Source: a virus. From it: DNA of 64,000 nt. Position numbers and translations under genes: made by a program. The DNA lies in IMG/VR virus record IMGVR_UViG_3300050821_006345, positions 32,001 through 96,000 of that record; one strand, written 5' to 3'. Positions 30,201 to 57,423 of this stretch are shown here, in pieces. The notes below the pieces were generated by a model. That model was not told the DNA's origin. It was given only the letters and a program-made list of their open reading frames with translations, and did no database searches. The stretch's first letter is position 1; the number at the start of each line of letters is the position of its first letter.

Positions 30201-30937
30201 GCCTCCAGTGCCACAGTTTCAACACCCGCAGCCTTCATCACTGGCAGCTTGGCAGATATTGCATCGTGCGCCTTCTTGATGGCAAGATACTCGGCCTCGG
30301 TGGAAATCGTGAACGCGGCGGCAGCAGCCGTTGATGTGGTCTGTGCCTCGGCAACAGATGCAACCGATGTCGCCAAAGCCTTGTTGTCTGCTATGGTCAT
30401 CTCGACATATTTGTCGTAGTCCTCCAGCGCGCCTTCAAGCTGCTCAATGCGGGCTTTCTGCACAACTGTGGCCTCTGATGCCTTGGTTCTCGCCGCCACT
30501 AGCTTGGTTAACTGGTCTAATTCCACCAGCGCGGCGGCCTGTTGGAATTTGTTTCCAATGGCCAGACCTTCTGCGTTCGGCGACGACGGCGGAGGATTTC
30601 TATATTCTGATAATGGCGTCCTTGGACTTGGATCACCCATTGCGATATTTACCGGAAGGCCATCTCCTCCAGCGTGCGACCCAGTGATTTTGATGTTCGC
30701 TTCACGCTCCGCTTTTAACTCCCGCCAAGCAACCAACTGTGCTTCCAGTGATTCGGTGGTCTTGGCGATGGCCTGATCCTCGGCTGCACTGATGGTTAAC
30801 GAAGAATCGGCACGCGACTTGGCCGCAGCTTCAGCCGCCTTGTTTGAAGCGGCAAGCTGGTCGAGCGTGGACTTTGCTTCCTTAGCCGCCGCTAAATCGG
30901 CAGCTGTAGAAACTTTAATGATTATTTCATCTGGCAT
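27215..30937 (-). CDS. tail tape measure protein
   Basis: 1240 aa Ala-rich helical ORF, hydrophobic segment, FADGGYTGDG..AGIVHKGE motif. Confidence 0.8.
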   Translation of the reverse strand: MPDEIIIKVSTAADLAAAKEAKSTLDQLAASNKAAEAAAKSRADSSLTISAAEDQAIAKTTESLEAQLVAWRELKAEREANIKITGSHAGGDGLPVNIAMGDPSPRTPLSEYRNPPPSSPNAEGLAIGNKFQQAAALVELDQLTKLVAARTKASEATVVQKARIEQLEGALEDYDKYVEMTIADNKALATSVASVAEAQTTSTAAAAAFTISTEAEYLAIKKAHDAISAKLPVMKAAGVETVALEATQAKYATVLASSSAIQIRDTIAEREAALVKKQLAEAALAAAAGQHAETGATHGNTVAMREAMVITRELMSGNVSRTPGSLGLLLSSLGLKGAGVLPALTAASVGFFAIEGIFRKIKESTQEADKAFEDFMGQAIHVPGLVGDLNGVREMNDKISESAYKFHLEIQRIMKDTNVLQTQMANTTNAINAQFAELTSHETGEINLLNTRIELMRTLGLINDDQAAKEKAQTALQDARNKMDAANKTDEAAIAAKQKEIDDARNAVPAAEAAYDAANKVAENRARQAENTTTNLKRTDDSISDLLNGTPEFAEQMKGAGIALTNKGQKVTKAAAQQEYIQSLLDSTQSPTDKMMSKKAELPKAISDNLPAIVNALDKYKNMGEGPIKSINQAVQDLAKDHPEAAAALYNQSNQGATGQIGNAGDTVKLIYALQEQKQDLAKITQLYLQRSQLWEELAPVRNAQAAADIAAASLNTTALNAANVLTPENLNALQQQKDKLYGNANDPLRGKNDPIYAGEMAARQTAFDKQFRQAQLTLANESLKEVLKTETVPQIVAAGTSAIDKIHQLNNLRYTKDRIDTAAADALAKRPEIRTDRDNQMIEMQLKLVEFEKGRENLLNLIRALGEQGAPIADIIRQHAAVFNPDNNAGTPGLAVDQDKQSLAGEQYQIIRILESIRLELAVKGAASPDVTKPSTSGLPGFADGGYTGDGHPDAVAGIVHKGEIVVPSDVVAKYKNKIPSSAAEWAEFDAATNGWRDDSGKSQSQVAEENRAFYAKQASDDAKTNGWLNPTASEKDDFYEKQREADAVKNKWNIHMSGQEKDDFYKKQAAADAAKNGWKTTTEAERDAFYKSQAASDKERRDKEWEQEFGGADWQAKAAARKEASAVRVREFHRDRGDIDNGDGTWTSPDHKKTYGTPPSEDAQYHRDFPAHRDTPHGSGALDAAHGATQSVQTMLAAIQKTLAIIPDTMNTLLRSLAATNEEVAGIKKTVDQGRMFR

Positions 30938-40274: not shown

Positions 40275-41276
40275 TTAGTTCACGGTGATCGCGTAAGCCG
40301 GTTGCAGCACGTTGGACGTCAGATAACGCAGCGTGGTGAACTGAATCTGTGGAACGCGGTTTGCAATCAGGCCGTAGTCATATCCAATCTGGAGTATGGA
40401 TGAGTTGCCAAGGGTTACGTTGGCCGAGCCGGACGGAGTTCCATTGGACGGAACGATTGAAAGCAAATTGCCAGACAGCAGGCTCTGGCCGCGATCGGCT
40501 CCGGTGTTCTGCATGTTCAGAATCGCAGTCAAAGTGGTTTCGGAAACAGTCAGAGGCGAGCAGGTCGCGGTCGCGACGTTATCGCCGACCGTGAAGTCCA
40601 CGATACCGTATTCGTCGGCCTCGACCGGCGTGGTTGACACGTTAAAGTTCACCGAAAATCCGTCCTTGGTATCATAAACCGCAAGGCTCGGAGATCCGGT
40701 CAGCGTCCAAGTCGGGACAGAATAAGAGGCGGTCGCTCCCCAGCCGCCAACGTAAGGCGTGGTTCGGATGGATGAAGGACTGAAGGCGTAGGAGCCGAAC
40801 GAAGCTGTGGCCTCGGTATAAAGACTGTTGTTGGTCGACCACAGAACGCCTTCCTTGCCAATCGCCGTGAATGTGATTGGCCCGACAATGGTCTTCACTG
40901 CGGAAAGCATCATTGATGGCTGCTTGGTCACCACTGCACCGTAGAACGTGTATTGATAGCCCGTCTTTGGGATGATCTGGATTTGCGGGTTTCCTGCGCC
41001 AATCAGCGAGTCTCCTGGATTCTTGCTGCCGTGCGGCCAGAGGACTCCGGCCATCGCCGTTGTAAGCTCGCCGGTTGGAGTCCATGTGATTTCAACTGAA
41101 CGCTGGTTGGTTCTCTTGTCCACGACGCCATAAAGCGAGGTGGCGATGTCGAACGTCTGGTTGGCAAGACGAACCTGAATGTCGCCCTGCGAGTAAAGTG
41201 TGGTTGGCGAGCCAACAGCCGGAGTGTAGATAATTACGGCTGGCCCACGGATGATAGATGCGCGTGTCAATGACAT
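40275..41276 (-). CDS. major tail tube protein
   Basis: IIRGPAVI..TSLYGVVD tube-like N-terminus with internally duplicated halves; follows the terminator-like gene. Confidence 0.6.
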   Translation of the reverse strand: MSLTRASIIRGPAVIIYTPAVGSPTTLYSQGDIQVRLANQTFDIATSLYGVVDKRTNQRSVEITWTPTGELTTAMAGVLWPHGSKNPGDSLIGAGNPQIQIIPKTGYQYTFYGAVVTKQPSMMLSAVKTIVGPITFTAIGKEGVLWSTNNSLYTEATASFGSYAFSPSSIRTTPYVGGWGATASYSVPTWTLTGSPSLAVYDTKDGFSVNFNVSTTPVEADEYGIVDFTVGDNVATATCSPLTVSETTLTAILNMQNTGADRGQSLLSGNLLSIVPSNGTPSGSANVTLGNSSILQIGYDYGLIANRVPQIQFTTLRYLTSNVLQPAYAITVN

Positions 41277-41329: not shown

Positions 41330-42262
41330 TTATGGTGCAGTTGCCTTGGCCTCTTTGCTCGTTAATTGTCCAGCCAGCCATGCCGATGTCCTGATTTTAG
41401 TCCCGCTTGAAACAGTGGACATCGATGATGGCGAAAAGGCCGTCCAGTTCAGGACATAACTTGTATCGTCGGTAAAGCCGTTAAGATTGAATCCCCACCC
41501 GTTACTGGTGATTGACCCGAATTCAGAAGCATCTAGAATCAAGTCTCCGGTCAATGTGGAAACGGTCATCACAGCGGCAGAGGGAGTGAATGGAAGTGCA
41601 AGACCAGTTAGCGTCCCGGTGTTCACCCCGTTCGGAATTGAGTATGTGCCGGAAATCTGGTAGCCAAGCCAGACGGAGGCAGAGGGATTGCCCGGAGACG
41701 GAGTTGACCCGTCGGTGGTGTAAAAAATGGCAGCACCTGGAGTGGAGCAGGAAAGCGCAAAAGTATCGCCGCTGAAGGCAATGACCGGAGTGGCCACTTG
41801 GTTGATCGTGTAGTCAAAGCCTCCGGCGGTCTTGAATCGGACATCGTAGCAGAGGAGCTTGCCAACTGTGCCTCCGGGCGCGATTGTGATGCTGGGAGTA
41901 TCCAATACCACCACCTCACTTATTCCAAGAGGTTCAAACTGGTGCAGCGTTACGGCGACCATCTCGGCAACTTCAGAGGCTTGCTTTCCGGTTCCAGATG
42001 TTGACCGATTAAGAATGACGTTCTCTACTGTGCGGCAAATTATTTTGATGTCATTAAAATACGGCTTTAGATAATTCGGGAAAGCTGCGTTGGCTGTTGG
42101 AGTAATCACAATGACGCAAATGCCTAATTTCGCCAAGGCCGTCTGGATCGCATTTTCAATATCTCCAGTCTGCTCCGTGATTATGGTCACGTTGCTGAAG
42201 TAGGGTGTCGCGGCCAGTTGGTCGGCGCATCCCTGCTGGATTCCTTTTAAGATGCTGCTCAT
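41330..42262 (-). CDS. tail completion protein with Fn3-associated domain
   Basis: N-terminal terminator-like region; VATPVI..STPGAAIFYTTDGSTP. Confidence 0.6.
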   Translation of the reverse strand: MSSILKGIQQGCADQLAATPYFSNVTIITEQTGDIENAIQTALAKLGICVIVITPTANAAFPNYLKPYFNDIKIICRTVENVILNRSTSGTGKQASEVAEMVAVTLHQFEPLGISEVVVLDTPSITIAPGGTVGKLLCYDVRFKTAGGFDYTINQVATPVIAFSGDTFALSCSTPGAAIFYTTDGSTPSPGNPSASVWLGYQISGTYSIPNGVNTGTLTGLALPFTPSAAVMTVSTLTGDLILDASEFGSITSNGWGFNLNGFTDDTSYVLNWTAFSPSSMSTVSSGTKIRTSAWLAGQLTSKEAKATAP

Positions 42263-43094
42263 TGCCTTAATGTAAATGGCTTTTGTTTAAAAGCAATTGC
42301 ATCGTTGCCGCTCCAGTTTATCTTGTATCCTTTTTCCATATTGTGAATCCACCATAGAGGCTGAAAATTTTGTAATTAAAACAGATGGCCTGTTGCATTG
42401 GATCGCTCAAGTCGAATGATGCAACCGGGCGGATATGATCCAAATTCCATTTTCCGTGTCCGTTTCCTCGGTTTGCCCAAGTCATTCCATCTTTGAATTT
42501 ACTTTCAATTCTCGCCTTAAAATCGTCCAGCGAACAGCCAAGAAGCTCGCGGGCTTTCTTGCTCTTGCCTTTCCCTTTAATGAAATCCGCAATCCTTCCG
42601 CGCAAAGAAATTGCAATTCTTAATTTAATGGCACCCGGAGTCATAGACTTCCGATATTTTCTTGCCCTCTCGCGCTCTTTAATTCTTGCCTCCGGCTTAA
42701 GCCGAAATTTTCTAGCTCTTGCTAAAATATTTTCCCTATCTCTCTTGTATCTCTCGCGATTGCGCGCTTGTATTTTTGCTTTTTGCAGTTCAGTTGGTGG
42801 CTTTACAGGTTTTCGATAAATCACGCCACCCTCATATTCCATTAAAGTGATTGCATTGGTGCAGTTTTCAAAATCGTCGGCGGCGTGTTCTGCGGCATAC
42901 TGGATGCGTCGTTTAGCTAGAATATCTTCACCTTTTTCCTCCCAGTATTTCGGCGCATATTCCGCCAGATACGCCTTCATATACGCGGAGTTCTTCTCCT
43001 TGTTTTTGCCGCGCCATTTCTGTTGCTGTGCCGCTCTTTTAGCCCTCACCGCCTCCCGCTGTTCCTCTGGATAATCTTCAATTCTCTTTGACAT
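42260..43094 (-). pseudogene. HNH/endonuclease-VII-like homing endonuclease with one frameshift near 42366
   Basis: LGCS..IESKFKDGMTWAN..W.LDHIRPVASFDL..CFNYK, then NFQPLWWIHNMEKG in the -1 frame. Confidence 0.75.
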
Positions 43095-43116
43095 GCCACA
43101 CATTCTGCCTCACACT
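43088..43116 (+). promoter_or_regulatory. candidate sigma70-type promoter for the ncRNA
   Basis: TTGACA-17 bp-CACACT, overlapping the divergent HNH promoter. Confidence 0.4.
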
Positions 43117-43149
43117 AAAACGAACGCAAGTGCCACATTGCCATTAGGT

Positions 43150-43925
43150 TCTGGTAGCACCTCCACGTCCGCAAACAAGCGGCAGATTGTCCTTGTGCCG
43201 AAATGAGCCTTGCGGTAATCTTCCACTTGCCACGCGATCCAAGATGGATTTTATTACTGGCGTTAGATGCTGATTAAAATCCAGCTTGGCGGAACATAGC
43301 GGTCGAATTTCTAATTTGCCCGTCCGTTTGACCGAAAGGTCATGCTCTCTGCCAAGAGTGATTTTAACCGGACGGGCATTTCTTTTGCCGTCATTCATCG
43401 GCTAATGCACGATGAGCGGCCAACCAAATCCAACATCAAACCTGCCGAACCCACGGCAACGCTCCCGTTGAGCTTGGGAATGTTTGGTGTGTTTTGCGAA
43501 ATATAGAATAATGTCGGTAGGATGGCATTCCCCGACCAACTTCGAGACCGAGGACAAACTCGGCCCAATACACAACCCCGCCTTCGGGAAACCGGAGTGG
43601 CGGCAGTCTGATGCGGTAAAAATCACCGCCCGATACAAGCTGGGTGCGAAGGTCGGAAGCAAGATTGTCATACGCGAAAGAGGACAGACCCCAATCCTAT
43701 GAAATGGGGCGGTCAGGCGTAGCCAAAGCAAGAGTCCGCAAGATCGGCACACTAAACATTATCGGCCAGCAATCGCGGTCGCCAGCTAAACGAACATCAG
43801 ACACTCGTGATAAACCATTAAAACGGTGCGAGCAGGCTCTAACGCGGCGGATTGCGGCAGAAACCAGACCTGAAATGTCTCTGGCTAGTGGCCGCGTGTA
43901 TTATGGCCGACGTAGGTGTGGTTAG
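43150..43925 (+). ncRNA. large structured non-coding RNA (~770 nt)
   Basis: No credible ORF; at least 10 hairpins, GAAA tetraloops on the + strand, long-range stems 43158-69/43909-18, 43194-201/43744-51, 43209-15/43736-42. Confidence 0.8.
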
Positions 43926-44010
43926 GCAGTTAGACGCTTAACCGTTACCGATGTTCTTCAGTTTCTGTTTGAAATGTTAAAGATTTAACGGCATACTCCG
44001 ACCAGAATTT

Positions 44011-44439
44011 GTGGCAAAAATCATCAAAATCTACTTTGACGGAGGATGTTCTCCCAATCCCGGCCAAGCCTACGGGTCATTCCACATTTTGAACGGCGAC
44101 CAAGAGCTTTTCTACCGCAGTCGAGTTCCTTTCGGTTTCGGAACGAATAACTTTGCCGAATTCACCGCCCTGACGATGGCGTTAAAAACATTGGCAGACG
44201 ACATGGCCGAACATGACGCCGATCCGAAAGAATACAACCTCTTTATTGAATCCGACTCCAGAATTGTCGTCAACCGCCTGACCAAGAAGAACAAAATCCA
44301 CAAGAAACCCAGAATGGTGGAAGCCAGCACCAGAATGTTTAATCTGGCCTGTGGCTGCTTGGATTACATGAAGCGGTTCAAATCGGTTGAAGTCGTCTGG
44401 AAGAAGCGGGATGCCAACGTCGAGCGTTTTGGCCACTAA
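44011..44439 (+). CDS. rnhA: ribonuclease HI-like protein
   Basis: YFDGGCSPNPG, TNNFAEF, SDSRIVVN; own TTGAAA-17-CATACT promoter. Confidence 0.85.
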   Translation: MAKIIKIYFDGGCSPNPGQAYGSFHILNGDQELFYRSRVPFGFGTNNFAEFTALTMALKTLADDMAEHDADPKEYNLFIESDSRIVVNRLTKKNKIHKKPRMVEASTRMFNLACGCLDYMKRFKSVEVVWKKRDANVERFGH

Positions 44440-45209
44440 TAAACGTCGGTTGCCCGGATAAACGCCGGATCTTGGTAGATGCTTCCGGTTTCTTTAGGCA
44501 ATGTGACGTTGTGCAAATACGCCTTCAGCGAGTTAATCGCGGCCTCCGTCATCGCTTCCTCCGATGGCAGCACGGTCGGGTCGGGTTGTTGCGTCACCGA
44601 TTCCACCAGCCAGTAAAACACGGTTCCTTCACTGTGCTGAATTTTACGTCCACGAGGCTCGGTTGGCTCGTATTCGCCCTTGTAAAATTTGCCTCCTCGT
44701 TTACGTCTTCTCGATGCCGATCCGCTTCGCGTCTCCGCAAATTCATGGTTCTGCCAGTGTGCGCCAGTAACGTCGTCTGAATCATCGTCAGAGGCTTTAA
44801 GTCCTACGACGCCGATTTTACCGGATTTCTGTCGGCCAAAAAACGGAACAAGATTTGCGAATTCGGTCGGTGAATGGCCGTAGGCTTCGGGCGTTGCTGG
44901 GATCGAGAGGTAGTGTGCGAAAACGGGTTTAATCTCTCCGCCCAAAAGTCTCTGACGCATTCCGGTCTGATTGATAACGACCGATGCCTCGTCCTCGCCA
45001 TACTCCATCGTTATGCCATCCGCCGCCTTCTGGTAAAAATTCGATTTGAAAGCCTCGCCGAATGGATTGGTTCGGTCAAGGTTGAGATTCGACAAATACG
45101 CGCTTAAGTAAGCATGGACGCCATCGGCTGCCGCTGCGGTTGCTTCAGAGCGGTCGTCGCCTAGAGAAAGAAGCGCGCCTAAATTCGGAAGGTCGATGGT
45201 GTATGGCAT
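44436..45209 (-). CDS. virion morphogenesis (neck / Mu gpG-like) protein
   Basis: GGEIKPVFAHYLSIP...YWLVESVTQQPDP. Confidence 0.6.
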   Translation of the reverse strand: MPYTIDLPNLGALLSLGDDRSEATAAAADGVHAYLSAYLSNLNLDRTNPFGEAFKSNFYQKAADGITMEYGEDEASVVINQTGMRQRLLGGEIKPVFAHYLSIPATPEAYGHSPTEFANLVPFFGRQKSGKIGVVGLKASDDDSDDVTGAHWQNHEFAETRSGSASRRRKRGGKFYKGEYEPTEPRGRKIQHSEGTVFYWLVESVTQQPDPTVLPSEEAMTEAAINSLKAYLHNVTLPKETGSIYQDPAFIRATDVY

Positions 45210-45211
45210 GG

Positions 45212-47791
45212 TTAAGCCTTGTGTGGCCGAATTTGCCAGTCCACTTCAGAATGCTGTGCCAGATGTTTAATCGGAATCTTAAAGCTTGTTAAATCACGGC
45301 CTTCGCCCCAGTAGCTCGCCGCGTGGCTCTTGTCCGGTGAAACAAAGATGCCTTCTGGATATTCTCCTGCCTTAATCTTTGAAATGACATCCGATGGCTG
45401 GCTGGTATAAACGCGCACCTGCTTGTCTCCGATACCCATCGCCTCATTCACCAAGTCCATCGTTTCCGGAGTTGCCTCGTCGTTTCCTTCAAACATCTCC
45501 TTTTTGCCGTCCTTGCTTAATAGCAGTCCGACTGTGTTTGGGTCGTTCTTGGCCGAAATATAAACCGGAACCGGCCAGACGCCGTCAGGATTGTCGTCAA
45601 ACAACGCCTGACTGGTTACGAGCCTTCTGGTTAAGTCTTTTTGATTGAATGGAATATCCCCCATCAGTTTGTGAACTTCGTCGTTCAGGTCATTGGCCAG
45701 TTTCAGAACGTGGTCTCCAGCTGGCTTGTTCTCGAAGTCGGCCAGAGTTTCAAGATGAATCTGGTCGTCACTTTTCCTCCCACGGGAGAATCTGGACTCT
45801 CGGTCAAGGTTCTCCTTCACGTCGTCCCACGTTATCGGATGCGGTGATGATTCGCCTTTCGGCAGGCTTCCTCCAACTTGACCCACCCGTCCTTCGTGGC
45901 CTTCAAACGAATTGAGAAGCCGTTTTTTAAGTGCGGCCTTTCTGGTTCGTGAGTTGGCGAGTTTTACAACTGGCTTCGGAAACTGGCCAGCAACCGGCTT
46001 GCTTAAATCACCGCCCTTGATCCACTGCTCAAACTGGCCGAAATCCAATTTTGTAACAGCACCGATTCTCTCATGTCCCCTTCCATCGGAGAACGCCCGC
46101 TTGTAGCAGTCGGTCGCCTGCTTCTCGTCTTGAAAGCCAATCATGCACTTTCTCTCGTCTGGATTTCCAGTCTCCGCGTCCACTTGATCGATGACAAACA
46201 CGGAAGCGGTGTCGCTTGGATTGGTGGATAAATAGCAGTCCAGCAAGTCTCCATCTTGGGTGCCTTTTTTCGTCCCCTTCACCCCGCCATAATCACTCGG
46301 CATGACCACCGTCCAAACCTTGCCGTCTTTGCCGATTCCAGAACGGACACTTCCGGCCAGTGACTCAATACTAATTCCGAGCGTTTTGTAGGTGGTGTGG
46401 GTTTGGCGATAATTTCCGGCCTTGGATTGTTTTGGCGTGGGAACGCGGCCAAGTCCTTTGTGCGGCAGGGCGTTGGTGATTTTTAATTCTGGCCTTTTGC
46501 CAACAATCACTTCTTCGTATGTTCCCGTTAAGCCGACGTTGACAGCCACAATATCGTCCACTGGAATAGACTTGGTGATTATATTTCCGCCGTATTGCTC
46601 TGCACCAGACTTGGTTGTTGCCCAGTTCTTTGTGGCCTTCTGCTTCTGCAATCCTTCCGACCGATACAGCGTCATTGAATCTCCAAAGTTGCTGCGAAGC
46701 TCATTTCTTGTTGGCGTGAAGCAGTCGTATAATTCAGATGCGGAAACCCGGCTGTTTCGGCCATCCATTATGTTGTCAACCGCCGTGTTTGTTCCCATGC
46801 CAACTCCGATCGCAGCCTCGGTGATTGCGTTGTAAACATCCCGATTTTTCATCAGGTCGTTTCTGGCCGTTAAAACAACCGAGGATGGGATTGCGCTTTT
46901 CCGGTCGGCAGGAGACTTTATATCCTCGATGGTCTTCGGCCTTGCCAAGTCGTAACGCAGCGAGTTGGCCTCGGCGTTCAGTGCGATAAATCTGGACGCC
47001 TCCGATGCTGTTAAGCCGCCCTTTTGAGCCAGCGGCATGATTTCGGATTTGATGGCGTTTAATCGGCCAATCATAGTCGGCCTGTCGGTGACGTGGCCTT
47101 TTAAGCCAGATCCGACCCCGCCGTTAGCCACCACAACCACCGGATTTGCCTTCCAGCGGCCTATTACGGCGTTCAGAAGCTCGAACTGCGGCTTGGGGGA
47201 CACCGTTTTCGGCAAATAAGCGTTTAACAGGCCGTGTAGCGTTGCCCGGATGGTCTTGGGCGAGGCTTTGGCCTTCAGCAGGGCGGAAGCGGTGTTTTTA
47301 ATGGCCAGAGGAAGCGGAATGGCGAAGTTTTTAACCTTCTCGTCCATGTTTACATGATAAACATCAGCCGTCTTGTCTCCGAGAAGTTTTCTGGCAGTCA
47401 GCCTATGATTTCCATCGGCGATGTATTGCTTGCCTCCTTTTTGAACCACCACCGGCTTGTCAAGCTGGTCGTCTGATGGCTCGGATGCCTTTCTTGAGTC
47501 ATCTCCGCGTTCAATGATGTCTTTTACTTTTGGCTCAAAGAACTCGTTGGTTCCGGTAAGATCGTCCAGATTGACGGTTTTCACTGTTTTTGGACCGCGC
47601 AGACGACGCCTTAATTCTTCCGTATCGTAGGGTGCCGCATGATCGCCGGATTTGAATATACTGTGCGTCCAGTTTTTCTCATCTGGAAGCCGTGGCAGTT
47701 TTTCAAGAGATGATAGCGCGCCAGCCTTTCGCACCTCCCACGCCTTCTTGACGCCCACACTTGTGCCTGCGTTGAGTAGCTTCCGCTTCAT
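45212..47791 (-). CDS. polyvalent protein: ParB-like, ART-like, InPase and second ART-like domains
   Basis: IADGNHRLTA; LYR..WATT..YEEV; AGNY..GSVRSG..YG..DGDLLDCY..DERKCMIGF; GIFVSPDKSHAASYW. Confidence 0.75.
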   Translation of the reverse strand: MKRKLLNAGTSVGVKKAWEVRKAGALSSLEKLPRLPDEKNWTHSIFKSGDHAAPYDTEELRRRLRGPKTVKTVNLDDLTGTNEFFEPKVKDIIERGDDSRKASEPSDDQLDKPVVVQKGGKQYIADGNHRLTARKLLGDKTADVYHVNMDEKVKNFAIPLPLAIKNTASALLKAKASPKTIRATLHGLLNAYLPKTVSPKPQFELLNAVIGRWKANPVVVVANGGVGSGLKGHVTDRPTMIGRLNAIKSEIMPLAQKGGLTASEASRFIALNAEANSLRYDLARPKTIEDIKSPADRKSAIPSSVVLTARNDLMKNRDVYNAITEAAIGVGMGTNTAVDNIMDGRNSRVSASELYDCFTPTRNELRSNFGDSMTLYRSEGLQKQKATKNWATTKSGAEQYGGNIITKSIPVDDIVAVNVGLTGTYEEVIVGKRPELKITNALPHKGLGRVPTPKQSKAGNYRQTHTTYKTLGISIESLAGSVRSGIGKDGKVWTVVMPSDYGGVKGTKKGTQDGDLLDCYLSTNPSDTASVFVIDQVDAETGNPDERKCMIGFQDEKQATDCYKRAFSDGRGHERIGAVTKLDFGQFEQWIKGGDLSKPVAGQFPKPVVKLANSRTRKAALKKRLLNSFEGHEGRVGQVGGSLPKGESSPHPITWDDVKENLDRESRFSRGRKSDDQIHLETLADFENKPAGDHVLKLANDLNDEVHKLMGDIPFNQKDLTRRLVTSQALFDDNPDGVWPVPVYISAKNDPNTVGLLLSKDGKKEMFEGNDEATPETMDLVNEAMGIGDKQVRVYTSQPSDVISKIKAGEYPEGIFVSPDKSHAASYWGEGRDLTSFKIPIKHLAQHSEVDWQIRPHKA

Positions 47792-48273: not shown

Positions 48274-48437
48274 AATTGAATCAAGATTAAGCCACGTCTC
48301 GGCCAAACACAACCACGACATTTCACTTGCCAACCGGAAGCGGAATTGCCAATCTGATGGCCGATAATATATGAGAAATCCGAATGGCAAACAGGCAGTT
48401 GACAAACCGCAGCGGTGCGGTATTCTGGAGGCGTGAA

Positions 48438-48632
48438 ATGCGAAACAAAATCAAAAATCCAGCCGCTGTTGCCCTTGGCAGGCTTGGTGGAGCAAAAGCA
48501 AGCGAGAAGCAAAAAATGGCAGCTCGTGAAAATGGCAAGCGGGGAGGTCGCCCAAGGCATCACCAGAAAGGCCGGAATTTACGCGATCATCAACAACAAG
48601 ACGGGGAAGCGTTACATCGGCCAGACGAATAA
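48438..48632 (+). CDS. small basic protein
   Basis: KNPAAVALGRLGG..AARENGKRGGRP. Confidence 0.6.
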   Translation: MRNKIKNPAAVALGRLGGAKASEKQKMAARENGKRGGRPRHHQKGRNLRDHQQQDGEALHRPDE

Positions 48633-49410
48633 TTTCAGCTTTCGGAAAGGCAAGCACATCGGTTATCTGCGGAGCAACTCCCACATCAATCCACACCTTC
48701 AACGTGCGTTTAACTTGGACGGCGAGGAAAGCTTTGAATTTACGATTCTTGAAGTAGTGGTGGATGGAGACATTAATGCAGCCGAGGTGCGATGGATTGC
48801 TATGTTTAATTCAGACAATCCTGAATTTGGATACAACTGCACTTCTGGAGGCAAATATGCACCACTCAATCGTGCCGCACTGGATGCAATCAGTAAGAAG
48901 CTTTCTGGAAGACCGCTTGCTCCAGAACATCGAGCAAAAATAAGCGCATCCAACAAAGGCAGAATTATTAGTGCAGAAAGCCGAAGAAGGCTGTCCGTTA
49001 CGTTAAAGGCCAAATACGACAGATGCGAGATGCCTTGGTTTGTGCCTACATATTTTTCTGGAGAACAACATGGAATGTTTGGCAAAACACACACGCCAGA
49101 AGCACGCGCAAAGATTTCATCTGCGAGAATGGGCAAAACATATTATGAAGTAATGTCAAAAGAAACGGCAGATAGGTTGATAGCACAACGGAAGGCAATG
49201 GTCGGCGATAAGAATCCAAATTACATTCACGTCGATTTAGAAGCCGTGATTTCAAGAATACAGGGCGGTGAATTCGTAGAAGATATTGTTAAATCACTTG
49301 CTATTTCAAAGACACAATTGCACTATAAGTTCAAGCGAAAATACAACTGCCCGCCGGTTGAATACGTCAATAAATTAAAATATGAAAATTGCGACAATCG
49401 AAACAATTAA
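48532..49410 (+). CDS. GIY-YIG homing endonuclease with NUMOD3 repeats
   Basis: GIYAIIN..RYIGQT..GYN; GKTHTPEARAKIS. Confidence 0.9.
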   Translation: MASGEVAQGITRKAGIYAIINNKTGKRYIGQTNNFSFRKGKHIGYLRSNSHINPHLQRAFNLDGEESFEFTILEVVVDGDINAAEVRWIAMFNSDNPEFGYNCTSGGKYAPLNRAALDAISKKLSGRPLAPEHRAKISASNKGRIISAESRRRLSVTLKAKYDRCEMPWFVPTYFSGEQHGMFGKTHTPEARAKISSARMGKTYYEVMSKETADRLIAQRKAMVGDKNPNYIHVDLEAVISRIQGGEFVEDIVKSLAISKTQLHYKFKRKYNCPPVEYVNKLKYENCDNRNN

Positions 49411-50365
49411 GTCAGTCCGCAAGCATCCGAACGCGGATTCCTTGGATATTTGCTCGGTTCTGGGTTTTGAATGCATCACCAAGATCGGCCAGTTCAAAGA
49501 AGGCGATGTTGTAGCTTTCCTGCAACCAGATTCAGTGCTTCCGCCCGATAAGGAGTGGTCTGCGTTCTATCGCTCAAAATCAAACAGAATTAAGGCGATT
49601 CGCCTGCGTTCGTGCTGGTCGGAAGGCGTCGCTGAATCACTCGCAACCGTTGGCTATACTGGGCAGATTGAAATTGGCCGAGAAATCTCGCAGGACATCG
49701 GAGTCACCCACTACGAGCCACCACTGCCTCAAGACCTGTCGGCCAAGGGACTGCTTCCGTTCGGCATCCCGCCCACAGATGAAGAGCGAGTGAATAATCT
49801 CGAAGCGATTCCCTACGGCGAAATCGTGGACGTGACGCTCAAGATTGACGGACAAAGCTGGTCGGCATACAACGCCATGGCGCGCGATTCCGATGGCAAC
49901 TTCATGCCGCCAGTCTCCGGCGTGTGCGGGCGGCGACTGGAGTATAAATTGGACTGCGACAATCACTATACGCGCAACTTCAAAAAATACGCGCATATTT
50001 TTGGCAAAAACCACAATCTGGTGAACGTCTGCTTTCGTGCAGAACAATATGGCTTTGGAATCCAAAGCTCGGCCAACAACCCGCACAGTAAGCTTCCGGT
50101 GGATTTGGCATTTTATTCAGTCTGGATGATGAACGACCGCAGATACGCACGCAAAGGAGAGTCTTTTTACGCTTACGACTTCTTCCCCAAATTCGGAATT
50201 CCAACAGCGCCAGTCATTGAGCGGGACGTTGTTCTGACACCGGAACTGGTTGCAAAATACGCGGATGGCAAAGAGATTAACGGGCAAAGTTATGAAGGAG
50301 TTGTTATACAATGGAGTGGCGGATCGTTTAAGGTTTTATCAAAGGAATACGATTCAAAGAAATGA
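49382..50365 (+). CDS. RNA ligase (Rnl2/DRB0094-like)
   Basis: HPNADSL N-terminal domain; TLKIDGQS, EGVV, SFKVLS. Confidence 0.88.
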   Translation: MKIATIETIKSVRKHPNADSLDICSVLGFECITKIGQFKEGDVVAFLQPDSVLPPDKEWSAFYRSKSNRIKAIRLRSCWSEGVAESLATVGYTGQIEIGREISQDIGVTHYEPPLPQDLSAKGLLPFGIPPTDEERVNNLEAIPYGEIVDVTLKIDGQSWSAYNAMARDSDGNFMPPVSGVCGRRLEYKLDCDNHYTRNFKKYAHIFGKNHNLVNVCFRAEQYGFGIQSSANNPHSKLPVDLAFYSVWMMNDRRYARKGESFYAYDFFPKFGIPTAPVIERDVVLTPELVAKYADGKEINGQSYEGVVIQWSGGSFKVLSKEYDSKK

Positions 50366-52742: not shown

Positions 52743-53915
52743 TTATGCTCCAGTCGAACTTTGCTGATTCGGCACGTCCGTCTCCTGTGACGTAGAGCGG
52801 GCAGCTAAACGCTCGGCCTTCCTTCTAGCCTTGTATGCTCGGTTGTATTCCACCAATGCGGCTCCGGTCGGGCCGTTTCTGCGCTTCACAATTCCAAAAG
52901 CCTCTTCAGGAGTCCAGTTCAAATCTCTAATCCTATTGCAGATTTGTATTAAATCACCTCCGCGAATTGCAATGTGGTTCGCAATCGTGTCTGATTGTCC
53001 GGCAAGCGATATATTGGCCGATTGTGCATAGGAAGCGCATTCATTCAATTTAGCTAATTGCCTCGCCTCGACCTTTTGTTTCCGATAGCTTTTGTTGTAA
53101 TCGCGAGATCTGTGCATCCTTTCCTCCGGCGTTAATCCAGCGTCATTCCAAGCCCTTCTTCCGGGCGGAGGGTCGATGCGTAATGCCTCTTTTAATGTCC
53201 AACCAAGCCGATGAATCCTAGCGTGAACCAAAGGATATTTCTGGTGAAATTCAGATGCTAAACTTTTTAGGGATCGTTTCTCGCCATTCCAATCCACTGC
53301 CTTATCTGTTGGATTTCCTCCGCGAGATGAAAGCGGTGTGGCTACCGCCTGTTCTGGAGTCATTCCGTTCCGGATGCGCTTCCGAACGCACACTGGAGTC
53401 ATTCCATTTTCTTCAGCAACCTCGTTTAATGGCCTTTCCTGTCCTTGAAACGTAATAATTTCAAGCAGTGGATATGTGTGCGGCTCCAGCCCAACGGCCT
53501 GTTCCGGTGTTAAACCGCTTCTTAATTTTGCGCGAATGGTGGTGTGCTGAATCCCATATTCTGCGGCGACATCCATCAGATACCTTCTTTGTCCAAGAAG
53601 CGTGATGTAACTTGAAACACGGCGATTTCTGTTCTGATCGTCAGGAGTCGCCCATCGGCAGTTTTCTGGCGAATAACCAAGGTTATTGTTCTTTCTTTCA
53701 AGAGTCATTCCATCTGGTCTCGGCCACATATCGCGAATAAAATCTACAACGGAAATCCTCCACCTGTCACAAACGGTGATTCCACGGCCTCCGTAATCTG
53801 GATATCCACCATTGCGAGGACTGTAGCACCGGCTAATCATATTAGACCAGATGCCTTTCAACTCGGCGACTTTTACTATTTCACTATCCGACAGCGGTAT
53901 TGTTTCGTTTGGCAT
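52743..53915 (-). CDS. HNH homing endonuclease with tandem HTH repeats
   Basis: WSNMISRC..YGGRGITVCDRW..TLERKNNNLGYSPENCRWAT. Confidence 0.9.
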   Translation of the reverse strand: MPNETIPLSDSEIVKVAELKGIWSNMISRCYSPRNGGYPDYGGRGITVCDRWRISVVDFIRDMWPRPDGMTLERKNNNLGYSPENCRWATPDDQNRNRRVSSYITLLGQRRYLMDVAAEYGIQHTTIRAKLRSGLTPEQAVGLEPHTYPLLEIITFQGQERPLNEVAEENGMTPVCVRKRIRNGMTPEQAVATPLSSRGGNPTDKAVDWNGEKRSLKSLASEFHQKYPLVHARIHRLGWTLKEALRIDPPPGRRAWNDAGLTPEERMHRSRDYNKSYRKQKVEARQLAKLNECASYAQSANISLAGQSDTIANHIAIRGGDLIQICNRIRDLNWTPEEAFGIVKRRNGPTGAALVEYNRAYKARRKAERLAARSTSQETDVPNQQSSTGA

Positions 53916-53976
53916 GACGACACGATACCAGTATAACAAACTATTTCAAGTTAAATCTTCACATGAATATAACAGC

Positions 53977-54026: not shown

Positions 54027-54965
54027 TTACGGCCCTGTCGGATTCAAACGCACGGCGGCAGCACTGTTAGTAGTGTGTATGTCTTCCGACCAGTCAAATT
54101 TGGCAACCTCTGCCCTACCGTCCTCGCGGACATAGCTACCCGGCACCATGAAGTTGTTGATCAGGCGGAACGTCTTCATGAAGCTAGGGTCGCGGCGCGT
54201 TGGATTTTCCTTGCGTGCGAAGATCAGGACGCTGGTGTCGAGCAGGAAGTTCATCGATGCTGCGATGCCTTCGCTGGCCGAGTCGTAAACCATGTAGGAC
54301 ACGCGGGTGTCAGGGTTGCCCAAGAACAGTCCAGAGGCGGTGTCCGGGGTGATGTTCGGGATTGCATTACCACCGGCGGTCACGAAACGTGAACGAACCG
54401 TTGGGTGATTCTTGAAATACATGTAGGCTGTGGCACCGAACAGAACGCCAACGCCCATCAACGAGCCGTATTTGGCGATCTTGATGACCGACAGGATGGC
54501 GTTGTCGATGTCGGAAACTGGGTCGCCTGTTCCGGCGCGAGTCCAGTCAACCGATGAGCCGCCTCCGACCGCAACGAGAGCCGCGTCAATGACGCTCTTT
54601 TCGTGGGCGAGGCCGGCGACTTCGGCGATCAGCGTGGCACCTTCCTGAAGGATGTTCTCCAACAGGTCTCCTTCCAGCTGTTCAAGATTGTCAACTGGAA
54701 AGTCCAGCGCGTGGGGGACGCAGTTGTAGGTCTTGTCCGTCATGTTAAACGAAAGCTCCACGGCACGTCCGCCGAGGCCACGGATGGTCTGGGGGAGGTG
54801 GAAGCGGTTCTTTTCGTCGTATTGCTTGTAGCGGCCAACAGAGGTCGCCACCGGCACGGTTGGCGCGAGGAATTCGGCCACGGGCTGGATTGAGTCCTGC
54901 GCCGCGCCCTGCGCGTATTGCTTCAGCATCGGGCTGCTGGAAATTGATTCGAGTCTTGATCCCAT
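54027..54965 (-). CDS. major capsid protein
   Basis: 312 aa; AEFLAPTVPV..DPVSDID; position after scaffold and decoration genes; terminator follows. Confidence 0.85.
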   Translation of the reverse strand: MGSRLESISSSPMLKQYAQGAAQDSIQPVAEFLAPTVPVATSVGRYKQYDEKNRFHLPQTIRGLGGRAVELSFNMTDKTYNCVPHALDFPVDNLEQLEGDLLENILQEGATLIAEVAGLAHEKSVIDAALVAVGGGSSVDWTRAGTGDPVSDIDNAILSVIKIAKYGSLMGVGVLFGATAYMYFKNHPTVRSRFVTAGGNAIPNITPDTASGLFLGNPDTRVSYMVYDSASEGIAASMNFLLDTSVLIFARKENPTRRDPSFMKTFRLINNFMVPGSYVREDGRAEVAKFDWSEDIHTTNSAAAVRLNPTGP

Positions 54966-56461: not shown

Positions 56462-57423
56462 ATGAAGCAATACACGATTAATGGCAAAACACAGTCACTC
56501 GAAGAATGGTCTGCGGAAACAGGATTAGGAACATTCGCTTTGGCGTATCGAATTAAAAATTGGCCAGAAGAAGATTGGATGCTCCAGCAAAAGAGCCAGT
56601 TTAAGATTGGAAGCAACAATGCTTTAATTGGATTGAGGGTTGGTAAATTAACAATTGAATCTTGCGTTGAGCCTCCCAACAATGTGAATCGTGGAGAGGT
56701 ATTTGGACGTGTCTTTGCGACTGCGGAAACAAGAAGGACATTCATGGTTACAGCCTTACAAAGAAAGTTCCAGTGAGGAGTTGCGGATGCCTTCGGTCAT
56801 ACGACAGGGCTCTTGCCAAAAAGAAATCTTATTCATCTGAATACAAAATCGGCCAGAAGTTTAATGCTTTCACTGTTACAGGATGCGTCGAGCCATCCAA
56901 CGGCAACAACGGTGGCGGTGTGTGGACTTGTGTTTGCGATTGCGGGAAAACAATGGCTAGAACCGGAAGGCAGCTAATTTACGGCAAGGGACATCGCGGA
57001 TGCACCCGGCCAGATTTGTATCGAAGAAGCAATGCTGACGACAAAAGACAGTTAACCATTAGCAATCAATACACACAGCACAAAAAGCGGTGCAAATTGA
57101 AGGGAATTGAACATCTTGATTTTACAGACTGGGAATCTGTTGTTTTCAGGCCGTGCCATTATTGCGGACTGATTGACGAGCGGTCTTACACCAATAAATA
57201 CATACAATCTTACGGCGAAGAAATCATCAATCTCTATAAGGTTAAGATAAACGGTGTGGACAGGCTTGATTCATCCATTGGATACACGCTTTCAAATTGC
57301 GTTCCGTGCTGCTTTTTCTGCAATACCGCAAAATATGCACACGAAGAAAATTACTTCCTGTCTAGGATAAAGCAGATTTATGAATTCAGAAGACTTGGGG
57401 AATTTACACCGACAGCGCCTTGA
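56462..57423 (+). pseudogene. HNH endonuclease split by a frameshift near 56695
   Basis: WTCLCDCGN..RSCGC lies in the second frame; CHYCG..NGVDRLDSSIGYTLSNCVPCC. Confidence 0.8.

What the first reader, a model, noticed from the sequence alone, without database searches (positions are those of the whole stretch)
43150..43925. ~770-nt ornate non-coding RNA inside the virion gene region
Seen in the largest gap lacking a credible gene: closing stem CACCT-cc-ACGTC/GACGT-AGGTG; nested long-range TGTGCCGA/TCGGCACA and CTTGCGG/CCGCAAG; possible pseudoknot GAGCC (43205) with GGCTC (43835); local stems CCAAG-TGGATTTTA/TAAAATCCA-CTTGG (43239-89), TGCCCGTCCG/CGGACGGGCA (43317-78) holding TGACC-GAAA-GGTCA, ACATCAAAC/GTTTGGTGT, GTCGG/CCGAC, CCGAG/CTCGG, CTTCGG-GAAA-CCGGAG, GCGGT/ACCGC, CCCCA/TGGGG, GCGGC/GCCGC. 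No RNase P, tmRNA or intron hallmarks. The size is in the range of function-unknown classes such as GOLLD, ROOL and, as I recall, the Verrucomicrobia-associated MISL; it may be one of these or new. Any link to the flanking HNH and RNase H genes is inference.
Basis: partly seen in the sequence, partly recalled or inferred. Interest (0 to 1): 0.88.

Follow-up and report, generated by a model that had tools for sequence, protein, structure and literature searches.

The report
Hairpin-rich spacer in phage endonuclease island
A 0.9-kb gene-poor stretch in an uncultured soil phage is probably not one giant RNA but the inside of a mobile-gene insertion, holding a 365-base hairpin-rich segment and two tiny possible genes, and no relatives were found that could prove a function.

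Summary
The gap is real. Window 43104-44010 (907 nt) has no credible long ORF and no Rfam match, and it lies between a divergent HNH-type endonuclease gene and an RNase HI gene.

The reading of one ~770-nt ornate RNA does not hold. Excess folding stability is confined to 43146-43510 (365 nt): z about -2.8 to -3.4, against 0 of 31 control windows at -2.8 or lower. The remaining 415 nt fold like shuffles (z -0.5). That part is tiled by two tightly coupled small ORFs of 63 and 73 codons, separated only by TGA-A-ATG. One has a positive coding score and a start context typical of this phage.

The block 42263-44435 is an insertion. Two distant relatives have the flanking head genes abutting. The HNH gene is frameshifted.

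No homologue of the spacer turned up in any collection searched, so covariation could not be tested.

Verdict: a composite homing-endonuclease island with an orphan structured non-coding segment. It is not GOLLD or ROOL. Interest is low to moderate.

The parts
42318..43103 (-). HNH/endonuclease VII-like homing endonuclease gene, apparently frameshifted. The likely true start is the ATG at 43094.
   Evidence: 22 loci in viral contigs encode relatives of its C-terminal half. An intact 341-aa paralog in the same phage hits PHROG endonuclease VII (1.5e-28) and HNH families. The annotated frame stops at 42318. The conserved N-[LF]-QPLW...N motif continues in another frame from 42375 to a stop at 42259-42261, which overlaps the next gene's ATG as ATGA.
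43104..43145 (-). Upstream leader or promoter region of the HNH gene, shared with the paralog's upstream region.
   Evidence: A 26-nt match at 92% identity, containing an identical 21-mer, lies upstream of the paralog (genome 113098-113123). Similar bases follow down to the start codon.
43146..43510 (.). 365-nt non-coding segment that folds into about five successive stem-closed modules. These include hairpin 43239-43289 and the three-way element 43317-43378 (with a TGACC-GAAA-GGTCA hairpin), which is followed by TTTCTTTTG.
   Evidence: z -2.8 to -3.4 on both strands, with 0-2 of 100-200 shuffles as stable. 0 of 31 control windows reach -2.8. ORFs inside it score negative in the coding model. 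No Rfam match at E up to 10. An alternative pairing, 43274-43293 with 43348-43367 (16 of 20), competes with both main hairpins.
43511..43702 (+). ORF63, a possible small orphan gene.
   Evidence: Coding score +2.45 bits per 100 nt, against +3.52 for RNase H. About 1% of 495 embedded spurious ORFs score as high, and 2.6% of 1500 shuffles give such an ORF. The A/T-rich start context resembles other genes here. It was called as a protein in the public collection (P0006). A metatranscriptome contig covers 43523-43701. Against: no homologue, ESM pLDDT 0.32, and AF2 pLDDT 55 with no secondary structure.
43704..43925 (+). ORF73, a possible small, very basic orphan gene that starts one base after ORF63's stop (TGA-A-ATG).
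   Evidence: Read directly from the sequence. Tandem tiling of two ATG-ORFs of 60 or more codons occurs in 18 of 1500 shuffles. Coding score -1.72. No homologue found.
43926..44010 (+). Spacer before RNase H, with a promoter-like site TTGAAA-17-CATACT at 43969-43997.
   Evidence: The count of promoter-like sites in the region (2) equals the shuffle expectation (2.3), so this is only a consensus match.
44011..44439 (+). RNase HI gene. It is the only + strand gene inside a long - strand virion operon, and it overlaps the end of the 257-aa head gene tail to tail by 4 nt.
   Evidence: Pfam RNase_H 1.2e-09 and PHROG 531. Homologues at 92, 67, 65, 50 and 50% identity. Conserved D10, E50 and D82.
43094..43107 (.). 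Left arm of a 14-nt inverted repeat (13 of 14 complementary). It covers the HNH start codons. The right arm is 44003-44016, over the RNase H start codon.
   Evidence: Only 14 of 200 shuffles of the region hold any 14-nt inverted repeat with at most one mismatch.
44003..44016 (.). Right arm of the 14-nt inverted repeat, over the RNase H GTG start.

Best explanation
The stretch is the interior of a ~2.2-kb insertion (42263-44435) brought by homing-endonuclease traffic into the head-gene operon of an uncultured ~130-kb soil phage. The host is probably a verrucomicrobium. The stretch is composite rather than one RNA.

Composition, left to right:
1. The 42-nt upstream region of a now frameshifted HNH gene.
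2. A 365-nt non-coding segment (43146-43510) that folds into about five stem-closed modules.
3. Two translationally coupled small ORFs of 63 and 73 codons.
4. An 85-nt spacer.
5. An RNase HI cargo gene.

Shown: the insertion, the frameshift, the lack of coding potential in the 365-nt segment, that segment's excess folding stability, the lack of excess stability in the ORF part, and the tight ORF tiling.

Inferred mechanism: the 365-nt segment acts in cis on the + strand as the leader of the ORF63-ORF73-RNase H unit. Its three-way hairpin at 43317-43378 followed by a U-tract would act as a terminator-like gate. The competing pairing 43274-43293/43348-43367 would open that gate (attenuation). 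I put this specific mechanism at roughly one in four. That the stretch is composite and not one large RNA I put at about one in two or better.
For: Insertion:
- Relatives L025 and L027 carry homologues of the 257-aa gene (31% identity, E 3e-21 and 1e-22), the 310-aa gene (39-40%) and, compared in L027 only, the 333-aa gene (24%, E 2e-23).
- In both, the first two genes overlap by 4 nt with nothing between them.

Decaying mobile gene:
- The HNH gene is frameshifted just before its N-x-QPLW...N motif. The shifted frame ends in an ATGA overlap with the next gene.
- The window holds other endonuclease islands: GIY-YIG plus RNA ligase on the + strand, and an HNH beside the major head gene.

Structure confined to 43146-43510.

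ORF part unstructured: z -0.53, -0.29, -0.80 and -0.50.

Small ORFs:
- ORF63 scores +2.45. About 1% of 495 spurious embedded ORFs and 2.6% of 1500 shuffles reach this.
- ORF63's stop and ORF73's start form TGA-A-ATG. Such tandem tiling occurs in 18 of 1500 shuffles.
- A>T skew on the + strand of 43425-43875 reaches +0.42, matching sense strands in this genome.
- A metatranscriptome contig, 100% identical, covers 43523-43701.

No known RNA family.
Against: - No homologue of any part of the spacer was found, so neither the RNA fold nor the ORFs have comparative support.
- ORF63 has no real homologue among 1.84 billion representatives or in the 90% clusters.
- ORF63 is predicted disordered: ESM pLDDT 0.32, AF2 pLDDT 55.2 and pTM 0.12.
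- ORF73 scores -1.72 and is extremely basic, as translated purine-rich non-coding DNA often is. It was not found as a called protein.
- The two strands fold equally well, so the strand of any RNA is open.
- The terminator-like element was not picked up by the terminator scan, because its loop is a 36-nt insert.
- Local hairpins of similar stability occur about 20 times elsewhere in the genome.
- The RNA-library contig does not prove transcription and gives no strand.
Confidence: 0.5

Rival explanations
1. One large (~770 nt) ornate structured non-coding RNA spans 43150-43925 on the + strand. It would be a new class comparable in size to GOLLD or ROOL, and the small ORFs would be accidental.
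For: - The whole stretch folds better than shuffles.
- It ranks 3 of 168 windows after dinucleotide adjustment.
- Long-range helices 43194-43201/43744-43751 and 43209-43215/43736-43742 have pair probabilities of about 0.9.
- The + strand has two clean GAAA-loop hairpins.
- ORF63 and ORF73 lack homologues and predicted folds.
- An RNA-library contig lies inside the stretch.
Against: - The 3' 415 nt have no excess stability on either strand (z -0.53 and -0.29; -0.80 and -0.50).
- The long-range helices add only about 3 kcal/mol beyond the two halves.
- GC-adjusted rank is only 17 of 170.
- Inverted-repeat counts are ordinary for this genome.
- No Rfam family at E up to 10.
- No homologue anywhere searched.
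- ORF63's positive coding score and the TGA-A-ATG coupling are each unlikely by chance, 1-3%.
Confidence: 0.1
2. The whole spacer is functionless debris of repeated homing-endonuclease and cargo insertions. On this reading it holds decayed gene remnants and leftover palindromes, ORF63 and ORF73 are spurious or dying, and the hairpins have no role.
For: - The neighbouring HNH gene is itself frameshifted.
- The island is absent from two syntenic relatives.
- No homologue of the spacer exists in any collection searched.
- Three + strand ORFs (54, 63 and 73 codons) tile 43342-43925 in three different frames, as a frameshifted pseudogene would.
- The 92%-identical RNase H relative yielded no ORF63 homologue in the protein collection.
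Against: - Excess folding stability of 43146-43510 exceeds all 31 control windows.
- tblastn of 8139 ORFs, from the phage itself and 109 fetched loci, against the spacer gave nothing above 26 bits apart from a self-overlap at the flank.
- Six ORF pieces have no Pfam or PHROG match at E up to 1.
- ORF63's coding score is like that of real genes here.
- A 14-nt inverted repeat sits exactly on both flanking start codons.
Confidence: 0.25
3. The structure acts on the - strand, inside the long late transcript that must cross the island. The 14-nt arm at 44016-44003 pairs with 43107-43094 and hides the endonuclease start codons in read-through transcripts. Transcripts from the HNH gene's own upstream region lack the distal arm and are translated. 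The hairpin modules would help bring the arms together or stabilise the mRNA.
For: - The 13-of-14 inverted repeat covers both start regions and is rare by chance (14 of 200 shuffles hold any).
- All genes from 19983 to 48405 except RNase H are on the - strand, so late transcription has to traverse the island.
- The - strand folds at least as well as the + strand.
Against: - An 895-nt loop is far longer than in the known cases.
- GAAA loops and the single G-U pair in 43433-43490 favour the + strand.
- The same repeat could be a shared DNA operator or a recombination scar.
- There are no transcript data with strand information.
Confidence: 0.1
4. It is a DNA-level element: a replication origin primed through an RNA-DNA hybrid processed by the adjacent RNase HI, or the recombination or homing site of the island.
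For: - The non-coding, hairpin-rich DNA lies next to an RNase HI gene.
- Both strands are equally structured, as expected for DNA palindromes.
Against: - No iterons or tandem repeats.
- No AT-rich unwinding block; GC is 0.47-0.58 throughout.
- GC-skew turns in the window follow individual genes and do not meet at this point.
- RNase H relatives in 53 of 60 metagenome loci with enough upstream sequence have at most 225 nt upstream and no such element.
Confidence: 0.05

Closest known systems
Free-standing homing-endonuclease islands between conserved phage genes (T4-type seg/mob genes; intronless homing). Recalled knowledge.
   Same: An HNH-type endonuclease gene with its own upstream region is inserted exactly between two head genes that abut in relatives. 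It is coupled by an ATGA overlap to the downstream gene. Paralogs and other endonuclease genes are scattered through the same structural module.
   Different: The island also carries an RNase HI gene on the opposite strand and a 907-nt gene-poor spacer. The endonuclease is frameshifted. No cleavage site or homing event was shown.
GOLLD and ROOL large ornate RNAs of phages and prophages (Weinberg et al. 2017, PMC5737381: passages read; cryo-EM preprint 10.1101/2024.12.08.627333: abstract start seen in the search listing).
   Same: A long ORF-poor stretch in a phage, with many stems. Its size, if taken whole, is in the same range.
   Different: No match to either family's Rfam model, even at E up to 10. 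There is no tRNA neighbourhood (0 tRNAs in the window). Only 365 nt are more structured than chance. No homologues were found, whereas those classes are defined by conserved covarying structure.
Stem-closed small stable RNAs and structured leaders beside homing endonucleases in phages: T4 rnaC/rnaD next to segB (recalled), and unchecked notes of this scan e1-5892788, e1-3086825, e1-5618224.
   Same: A few hundred bases without a gene, built of back-to-back stem-closed modules, next to a homing endonuclease gene and absent from Rfam.
   Different: There is no tRNA cluster here and no promoter of known strength. There is no relative with the same element, and neither expression nor strand is shown.
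Transcription attenuators and terminator-antiterminator leaders.
   Same: A stable stem followed by a U-tract (43317-43388) upstream of an operon, with a mutually exclusive alternative pairing.
   Different: The terminator stem encloses a 36-nt two-hairpin insert and was not scored by the consensus scan. No ligand, leader peptide or protein partner is evident. The mechanism is inference only.

Membership tests
GOLLD RNA | Match to the family's covariance model (conserved sequence and structure) | tested here: not met
   No Rfam 15 match at gathering score in the window. None at E up to 10 in 42900-44200, 43120-43530 or 43480-44020.
ROOL RNA | Match to the family's covariance model. [quoted passage not shown] | tested here: not met
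   No Rfam match. No tRNA in the 64-kb window.
   Nothing in Rfam 15 matched. I could not confirm from any call that MISL is among the 4227 families. The term is absent from the main text of PMC5737381. Only one unrelated paper was listed for 'MISL RNA'.
Group I or group II intron | Conserved catalytic core, and insertion within a host gene (flanking exons) | tested here: not met
   No intron family at E up to 10. The flanking genes are complete on their own. The 257-aa and 310-aa genes abut as separate genes in relatives. The RNase H N-terminus aligns with its homologues from residue 1.
HEARO / IscB omega-RNA | RNA directly upstream of, and co-oriented with, an IscB-type nuclease (RuvC plus HNH, about 400-500 aa) and matching the HEARO model. 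Features recalled. | tested here: not met
   No Rfam match. The neighbouring protein is 261 aa, has no RuvC or other Pfam domain, and belongs to an endonuclease VII/HNH homing family.
Free-standing homing endonuclease island | Endonuclease gene inserted between genes that are adjacent in related genomes | tested here: met
   L025 and L027 have the two flanking head genes overlapping by 4 nt. 22 viral loci in unrelated contexts, including giant-virus bins, encode relatives of the endonuclease.
Free-standing homing endonuclease island | Active endonuclease that cuts the empty site | not testable with these tools
   The gene is frameshifted before its last catalytic motif. Activity and target site are unknown.
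Structured functional RNA (any class) | Conservation with compensatory base changes in homologues | not testable with these tools
   No homologue was found in any search.
Protein-coding small genes (ORF63, ORF73) | Coding statistics above chance, homologues, predicted fold | tested here: inconclusive
   For: coding score and coupled arrangement. Against, or uninformative: no homologues and no confident fold.

The most novel reading that the evidence does not exclude
The hairpin-rich 365-nt segment, alone or together with the downstream 415 nt, is a new class of phage-borne structured RNA. It would travel with a homing endonuclease and an RNase HI cargo gene in phages of Verrucomicrobia. It might be an RNA that the adjacent RNase H processes (primer or R-loop), or one that controls the mobile island's genes. 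Its apparent lack of relatives would only reflect poor sampling of these phages.
Probability: 0.12. Interest if true: 0.65.

Novelty: new member of a known kind. Interest (0 to 1): 0.27.

Why it matters
A real, new large phage RNA would join a very short list (GOLLD, ROOL and a few others) whose functions are still being worked out. The evidence here points to something more ordinary and still useful. Long gene-free stretches in uncultured phages can be mosaics left by homing-endonuclease traffic: a structured non-coding piece, tiny orphan ORFs and a cargo gene. A whole-stretch folding z-score can be carried entirely by one sub-segment. The case also gives a host hint for this phage (RNase H of verrucomicrobial type), and shows a virion operon interrupted by three endonuclease islands.

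Tried and rejected
Hidden coding in the gap:
- Six-frame translation and single-stop reassignment open no frame.
- Six ORF pieces have no Pfam or PHROG match at E up to 1.
- ORF63, ORF73 and orf54 have no PADLOC or NCBIfam match.
- tblastn of 8139 ORFs against the gap gave only noise, at most 26 bits.

ORF63 and the DUF7495 repeats:
- ORF63's hits to P0007-P0010 (E down to 1e-13) are rejected as homology. All four are repeat proteins with 3-7 matched stretches, which inflates the summed score. Single stretches reach at most 35 bits.
- P0008's repeat is DUF7495/FGE-sulfatase-like, but ORF63 does not hit that profile.
- The similarity does not extend upstream in any frame.

Link between the RNA and the flanking gene families:
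- 22 HNH loci and 5 head-gene loci have nothing like the spacer.
- The same holds for 80 metagenome and 13 genome loci with RNase H relatives.
- Of 60 metagenome loci with at least 900 nt upstream of RNase H, 53 have at most 225 nt to the next ORF of 90 aa or more.
- 7 have 417-996 nt. One of these (L084) is an N-terminally extended RNase H.
- Rfam found only two distant tRNAs in those 7 loci.

DNA-level searches for the spacer:
- Phage database, distant mode: no match.
- Own record: only itself plus the 26-nt HNH upstream match.
- Records of L025-L028: nothing below E 0.04.
- 5 Verrucomicrobia genomes: one 31-nt match at E 0.0026, taken as chance.
- 401 genomes of that phylum: 0 matches.
- Four exact-pattern scans of viral contigs: one hit, L129. 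It is a 19-mer inside unrelated coding DNA with no extension.

Sequencing runs:
- The DNA run X1 (soil) holds the stretch without differences and may be the source sample.
- The RNA run X2 has three small identical contigs, at 43523-43701, 44248-44484 and 44463-44613. The rest, including 43146-43510, has no cover. Contigs give no strand and no ends, and DNA may be present in the library.
- I draw no conclusion from the uncovered parts.

Other checks that led nowhere:
- Structure prediction of ORF63 gave no usable model, so no fold search was run.
- The sigma-54 reading of the HNH upstream TGGCAC..TTGC was considered and dropped because the spacing does not fit (my inspection).
- Cumulative GC skew as an origin marker was dropped because the skew follows individual genes.
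- Earlier-findings look-ups by place (relatives) and by sequence found no look-alike in other genomes.
- Supplementary files of papers were not consulted. The supplement of PMC5737381, which lists all 224 motifs, might bear on the MISL question.
Full report
**Where it lies**

The window is bases 32001-96000 of a 132,191-base IMG/VR virus record, estimated 78% complete. A soil metagenome run holds the stretch without differences.

The surroundings are a virion module on the - strand:
- head maturation protease (57404-59134);
- major head protein (54027-54965);
- a polyvalent protein with an InPase domain (45212-47791);
- a 257-aa gene (44436-45209), a 310-aa Ig-like protein (41330-42262) and a 333-aa protein (40275-41276);
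- a tape-measure-like protein (27215-30937).

Homing-endonuclease genes interrupt this module. One is a GIY-YIG gene followed by an RNA ligase on the + strand (48415-50365). Another is an HNH gene at 52743-53939.

**The observation**

The gap between the HNH-like gene (42318-43103, -) and the RNase HI gene (44011-44439, +) is 907 nt.
- No frame is open, and all six frames carry 7-15 stops.
- ORF pieces have no family match.
- In a rough ORF map of the whole record, every other gap is at most 353 nt.
- Rfam 15 gives nothing at gathering score for the whole window.
- At E up to 10 it gives only two chance rows: TCL6_1 at 18.7 bits against a cut-off of 60, and SorY at 13.5 bits against 111.

**Is it more structured than chance?**

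Taken whole (43150-43925) it is. z is -3.38 and -3.74 on the two strands with 20 shuffles, and -2.97 with 100 shuffles.

Controls from the same genome are mixed:
- Nine random 776-nt windows gave z from -1.93 to +1.02.
- Dinucleotide-adjusted energy ranks the stretch 3 of 168.
- GC-adjusted energy ranks it only 17 of 170.
- Inverted-repeat counts are ordinary.

Splitting the stretch resolves this.
- 43146-43510 has z -3.27 and -3.38, with 0 of 200 shuffles as stable. The fold tool gives -2.80 and -3.03.
- None of 31 control 365-nt windows reaches -2.8 (minimum -2.59).
- 43511-43925 has z -0.53 and -0.29. Its sub-blocks give -0.80 and -0.50.
- The long-range closing helices are predicted with high probability. 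They contribute only about 3 kcal/mol beyond the excess of the two halves.

So there is a structured 365-nt segment, not a structured 770-nt one. It folds into about five successive stem-closed modules. These include a 15-bp hairpin (43239-43289) and a three-way element (43317-43378) that holds a GAAA-loop hairpin and is followed by TTTCTTTTG. A 16-of-20 alternative pairing (43274-43293 with 43348-43367) competes with both. Single hairpins of this strength are not rare in the genome: the best one here is about the 20th most stable 70-nt window cluster.

**What fills the unstructured part?**

On the + strand an ATG at 43511, in an A/T-rich context like that of other genes of this phage, opens ORF63. 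ORF63 stops at 43700-43702. One base later an ATG opens ORF73, which ends at 43925.

I trained a periodic Markov model on the phage's own long ORFs.
- ORF63 scores +2.45 bits per 100 nt. RNase H, which was not in the training set, scores +3.52.
- About 1% of 495 spurious ORFs embedded in real genes score as high.
- 2.6% of 1500 dinucleotide shuffles of the gap produce such an ORF. Only 18 of 1500 produce two tandem ATG-ORFs of 60 or more codons.
- ORF73 scores -1.72 and orf54 (43342-43506) -3.02. The - strand ORFs score -1.3 and -13.4.
- The + strand of 43425-43875 is strongly A-over-T skewed, as sense strands are in this genome.

Against coding:
- ORF63 has no true homologue. A full HMMER scan found itself plus four repeat proteins whose scores are inflated by 3-7 repeated stretches.
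- Its 90% cluster holds one sequence on two contigs.
- ESM and AlphaFold give no confident fold.
- ORF73 was not found as a called protein.

A metatranscriptome holds a 179-nt identical contig at 43523-43701 and two at the RNase H end. These give neither strand nor proof of transcription.

**The island**

Three viral contigs encode relatives of the 310-aa protein over residues 1-192 or more (32-40% identity). In two of them (L025, L027) the gene just upstream is a homologue of the 257-aa protein (31% identity) and overlaps it by 4 nt. In L027 the next gene matches the 333-aa protein. Hence 42263-44435 (HNH, spacer, RNase H) is an insertion in this phage.

The endonuclease:
- 22 viral loci of unrelated context encode relatives of the HNH protein's C-terminal half.
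- An intact 341-aa paralog elsewhere in the record hits PHROG endonuclease VII (1.5e-28) and HNH families.
- The paralog shares the 42-nt upstream region with the window's copy.
- The window's copy is frameshifted at a short A/T homopolymer. The family motif N-[LF]-QPLW...N continues in another frame and ends in an ATGA overlap with the 310-aa gene.
- So this is a decaying gene, unless it is an assembly error.

The RNase H:
- It is intact, with D10, E50 and D82 conserved.
- Its relatives at about 50% identity sit in metagenome contigs and in MAGs. 8 of the 13 MAG loci are labelled Verrucomicrobia, mostly subdivision 3. This hints at the host.
- Shine-Dalgarno-like motifs precede only 12 of 108 long ORFs.
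- These relatives do not have the spacer.

**Homologues of the spacer**

None was found in any of the following:
- the phage database;
- the phage's own record;
- 109 fetched loci;
- four related viral records;
- 5 plus 401 Verrucomicrobiota genomes;
- four exact-pattern scans, which gave one chance 19-mer.

They did not turn up in the viral or metagenome collections. Covariation, the decisive test, was therefore impossible.

**A further feature**

A 14-nt inverted repeat (13 of 14 complementary) has one arm on the HNH start codons (43094-43107) and the other on the RNase H start codon (44003-44016). Only 14 of 200 shuffles have any repeat of that quality. It could be a shared operator, a recombination scar, or a long-range RNA helix that hides the endonuclease start in read-through late transcripts.

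**Reading**

Most likely (about 0.5) the stretch is composite. It would comprise the HNH upstream region, a 365-nt structured non-coding segment, two coupled small ORFs, and the RNase H upstream spacer, all inside a homing-endonuclease-borne island.

For how the structured segment works, my best guess is inference only, at about one in four. It would be a + strand leader whose terminator-like three-way hairpin and competing pairing gate transcription into ORF63-ORF73-RNase H.

Rivals:
- functionless debris (0.25);
- one large ornate RNA, as first proposed (0.1);
- a - strand cis element in the late mRNA (0.1);
- a DNA element such as an RNase H-dependent origin (0.05).

**Comparison with the known**

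It behaves like a free-standing homing-endonuclease island and meets the insertion criterion. It is not a member of GOLLD, ROOL, intron or HEARO families: models not matched, context features not met. It resembles the stem-closed small RNAs and leaders noted beside endonuclease genes in other phages. That comparison rests on recalled T4 rnaC/rnaD and on unchecked notes of this scan, and membership cannot be tested.

This scan had already noted the same stretch in another window, as two blocks split near 43481/43511. My tests agree with the 5' block and contradict the claim of an ornate 3' block.

**Verdict**

- Observation: partly confirmed.
- First interpretation: partly supported.
- Novelty: a new member of a known kind, with an orphan structured segment of unknown role.
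- Interest: 0.27.
- Boldest reading not excluded: a new phage RNA class travelling with an endonuclease and RNase H. Probability about 0.12; interest if true 0.65.

Noticed in passing
window 42259-42390 (- strand): The HNH-like gene is frameshifted at a short A/T homopolymer, just before its conserved N-[LF]-QPLW...N motif. The shifted frame runs on to a stop that overlaps the start of the 310-aa head gene as ATGA. Either the gene is decaying or the assembly has an indel.
   Followed up: yes
L002:451-1526 (genome 112048-113123, outside the window): An intact 341-aa paralog of the endonuclease (PHROG endonuclease VII/HNH). It has the same upstream region of about 60 nt, preceded by a strong terminator hairpin.
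   Followed up: partly
window 43094-43107 and 44003-44016: A 14-nt inverted repeat (13 of 14) whose arms sit exactly on the start codons of the two divergent genes, 895 nt apart. A related word, TG[CT]GG[TC]A[AG]AAA[TC]CA, occurs three times (43612, 43853, 44010).
   Followed up: partly
window 48415-50365 (+) and 52743-53939 (-): Two more endonuclease islands in the head module. One is a GIY-YIG homing endonuclease followed by an RNA ligase, on the strand opposite to the virion genes. The other is an HNH endonuclease directly beside the major head protein gene.
   Followed up: partly
window 44011-44439; loci L115-L124: The phage RNase HI is about 50% identical to proteins of MAGs. 8 of the 13 MAG loci are labelled Verrucomicrobia (mostly subdivision 3 or Limisphaerales). 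Only 12 of 108 long ORFs have a Shine-Dalgarno-like motif. Together these hint at a verrucomicrobial host.
   Followed up: partly
window 43523-43701, 44248-44613: A soil metatranscriptome holds three short contigs identical to the window, one inside ORF63 and two across the RNase H / 257-aa gene junction. Strand and transcription are not shown.
   Followed up: no
window 43511-43699 versus P0008: ORF63 resembles the C-terminal half of the DUF7495 (C-type-lectin/FGE-like) repeat of a 424-aa protein in four registers (W-S-x-x-NF...LG..HN..FG.PEW). I judged this an inflated repeat hit, but the motif match is striking.
   Followed up: yes
window 45212-47791: An 859-aa polyvalent head protein with an inorganic-pyrophosphatase (InPase) domain, of the kind found in DarB-like and giant virion proteins.
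   Followed up: no
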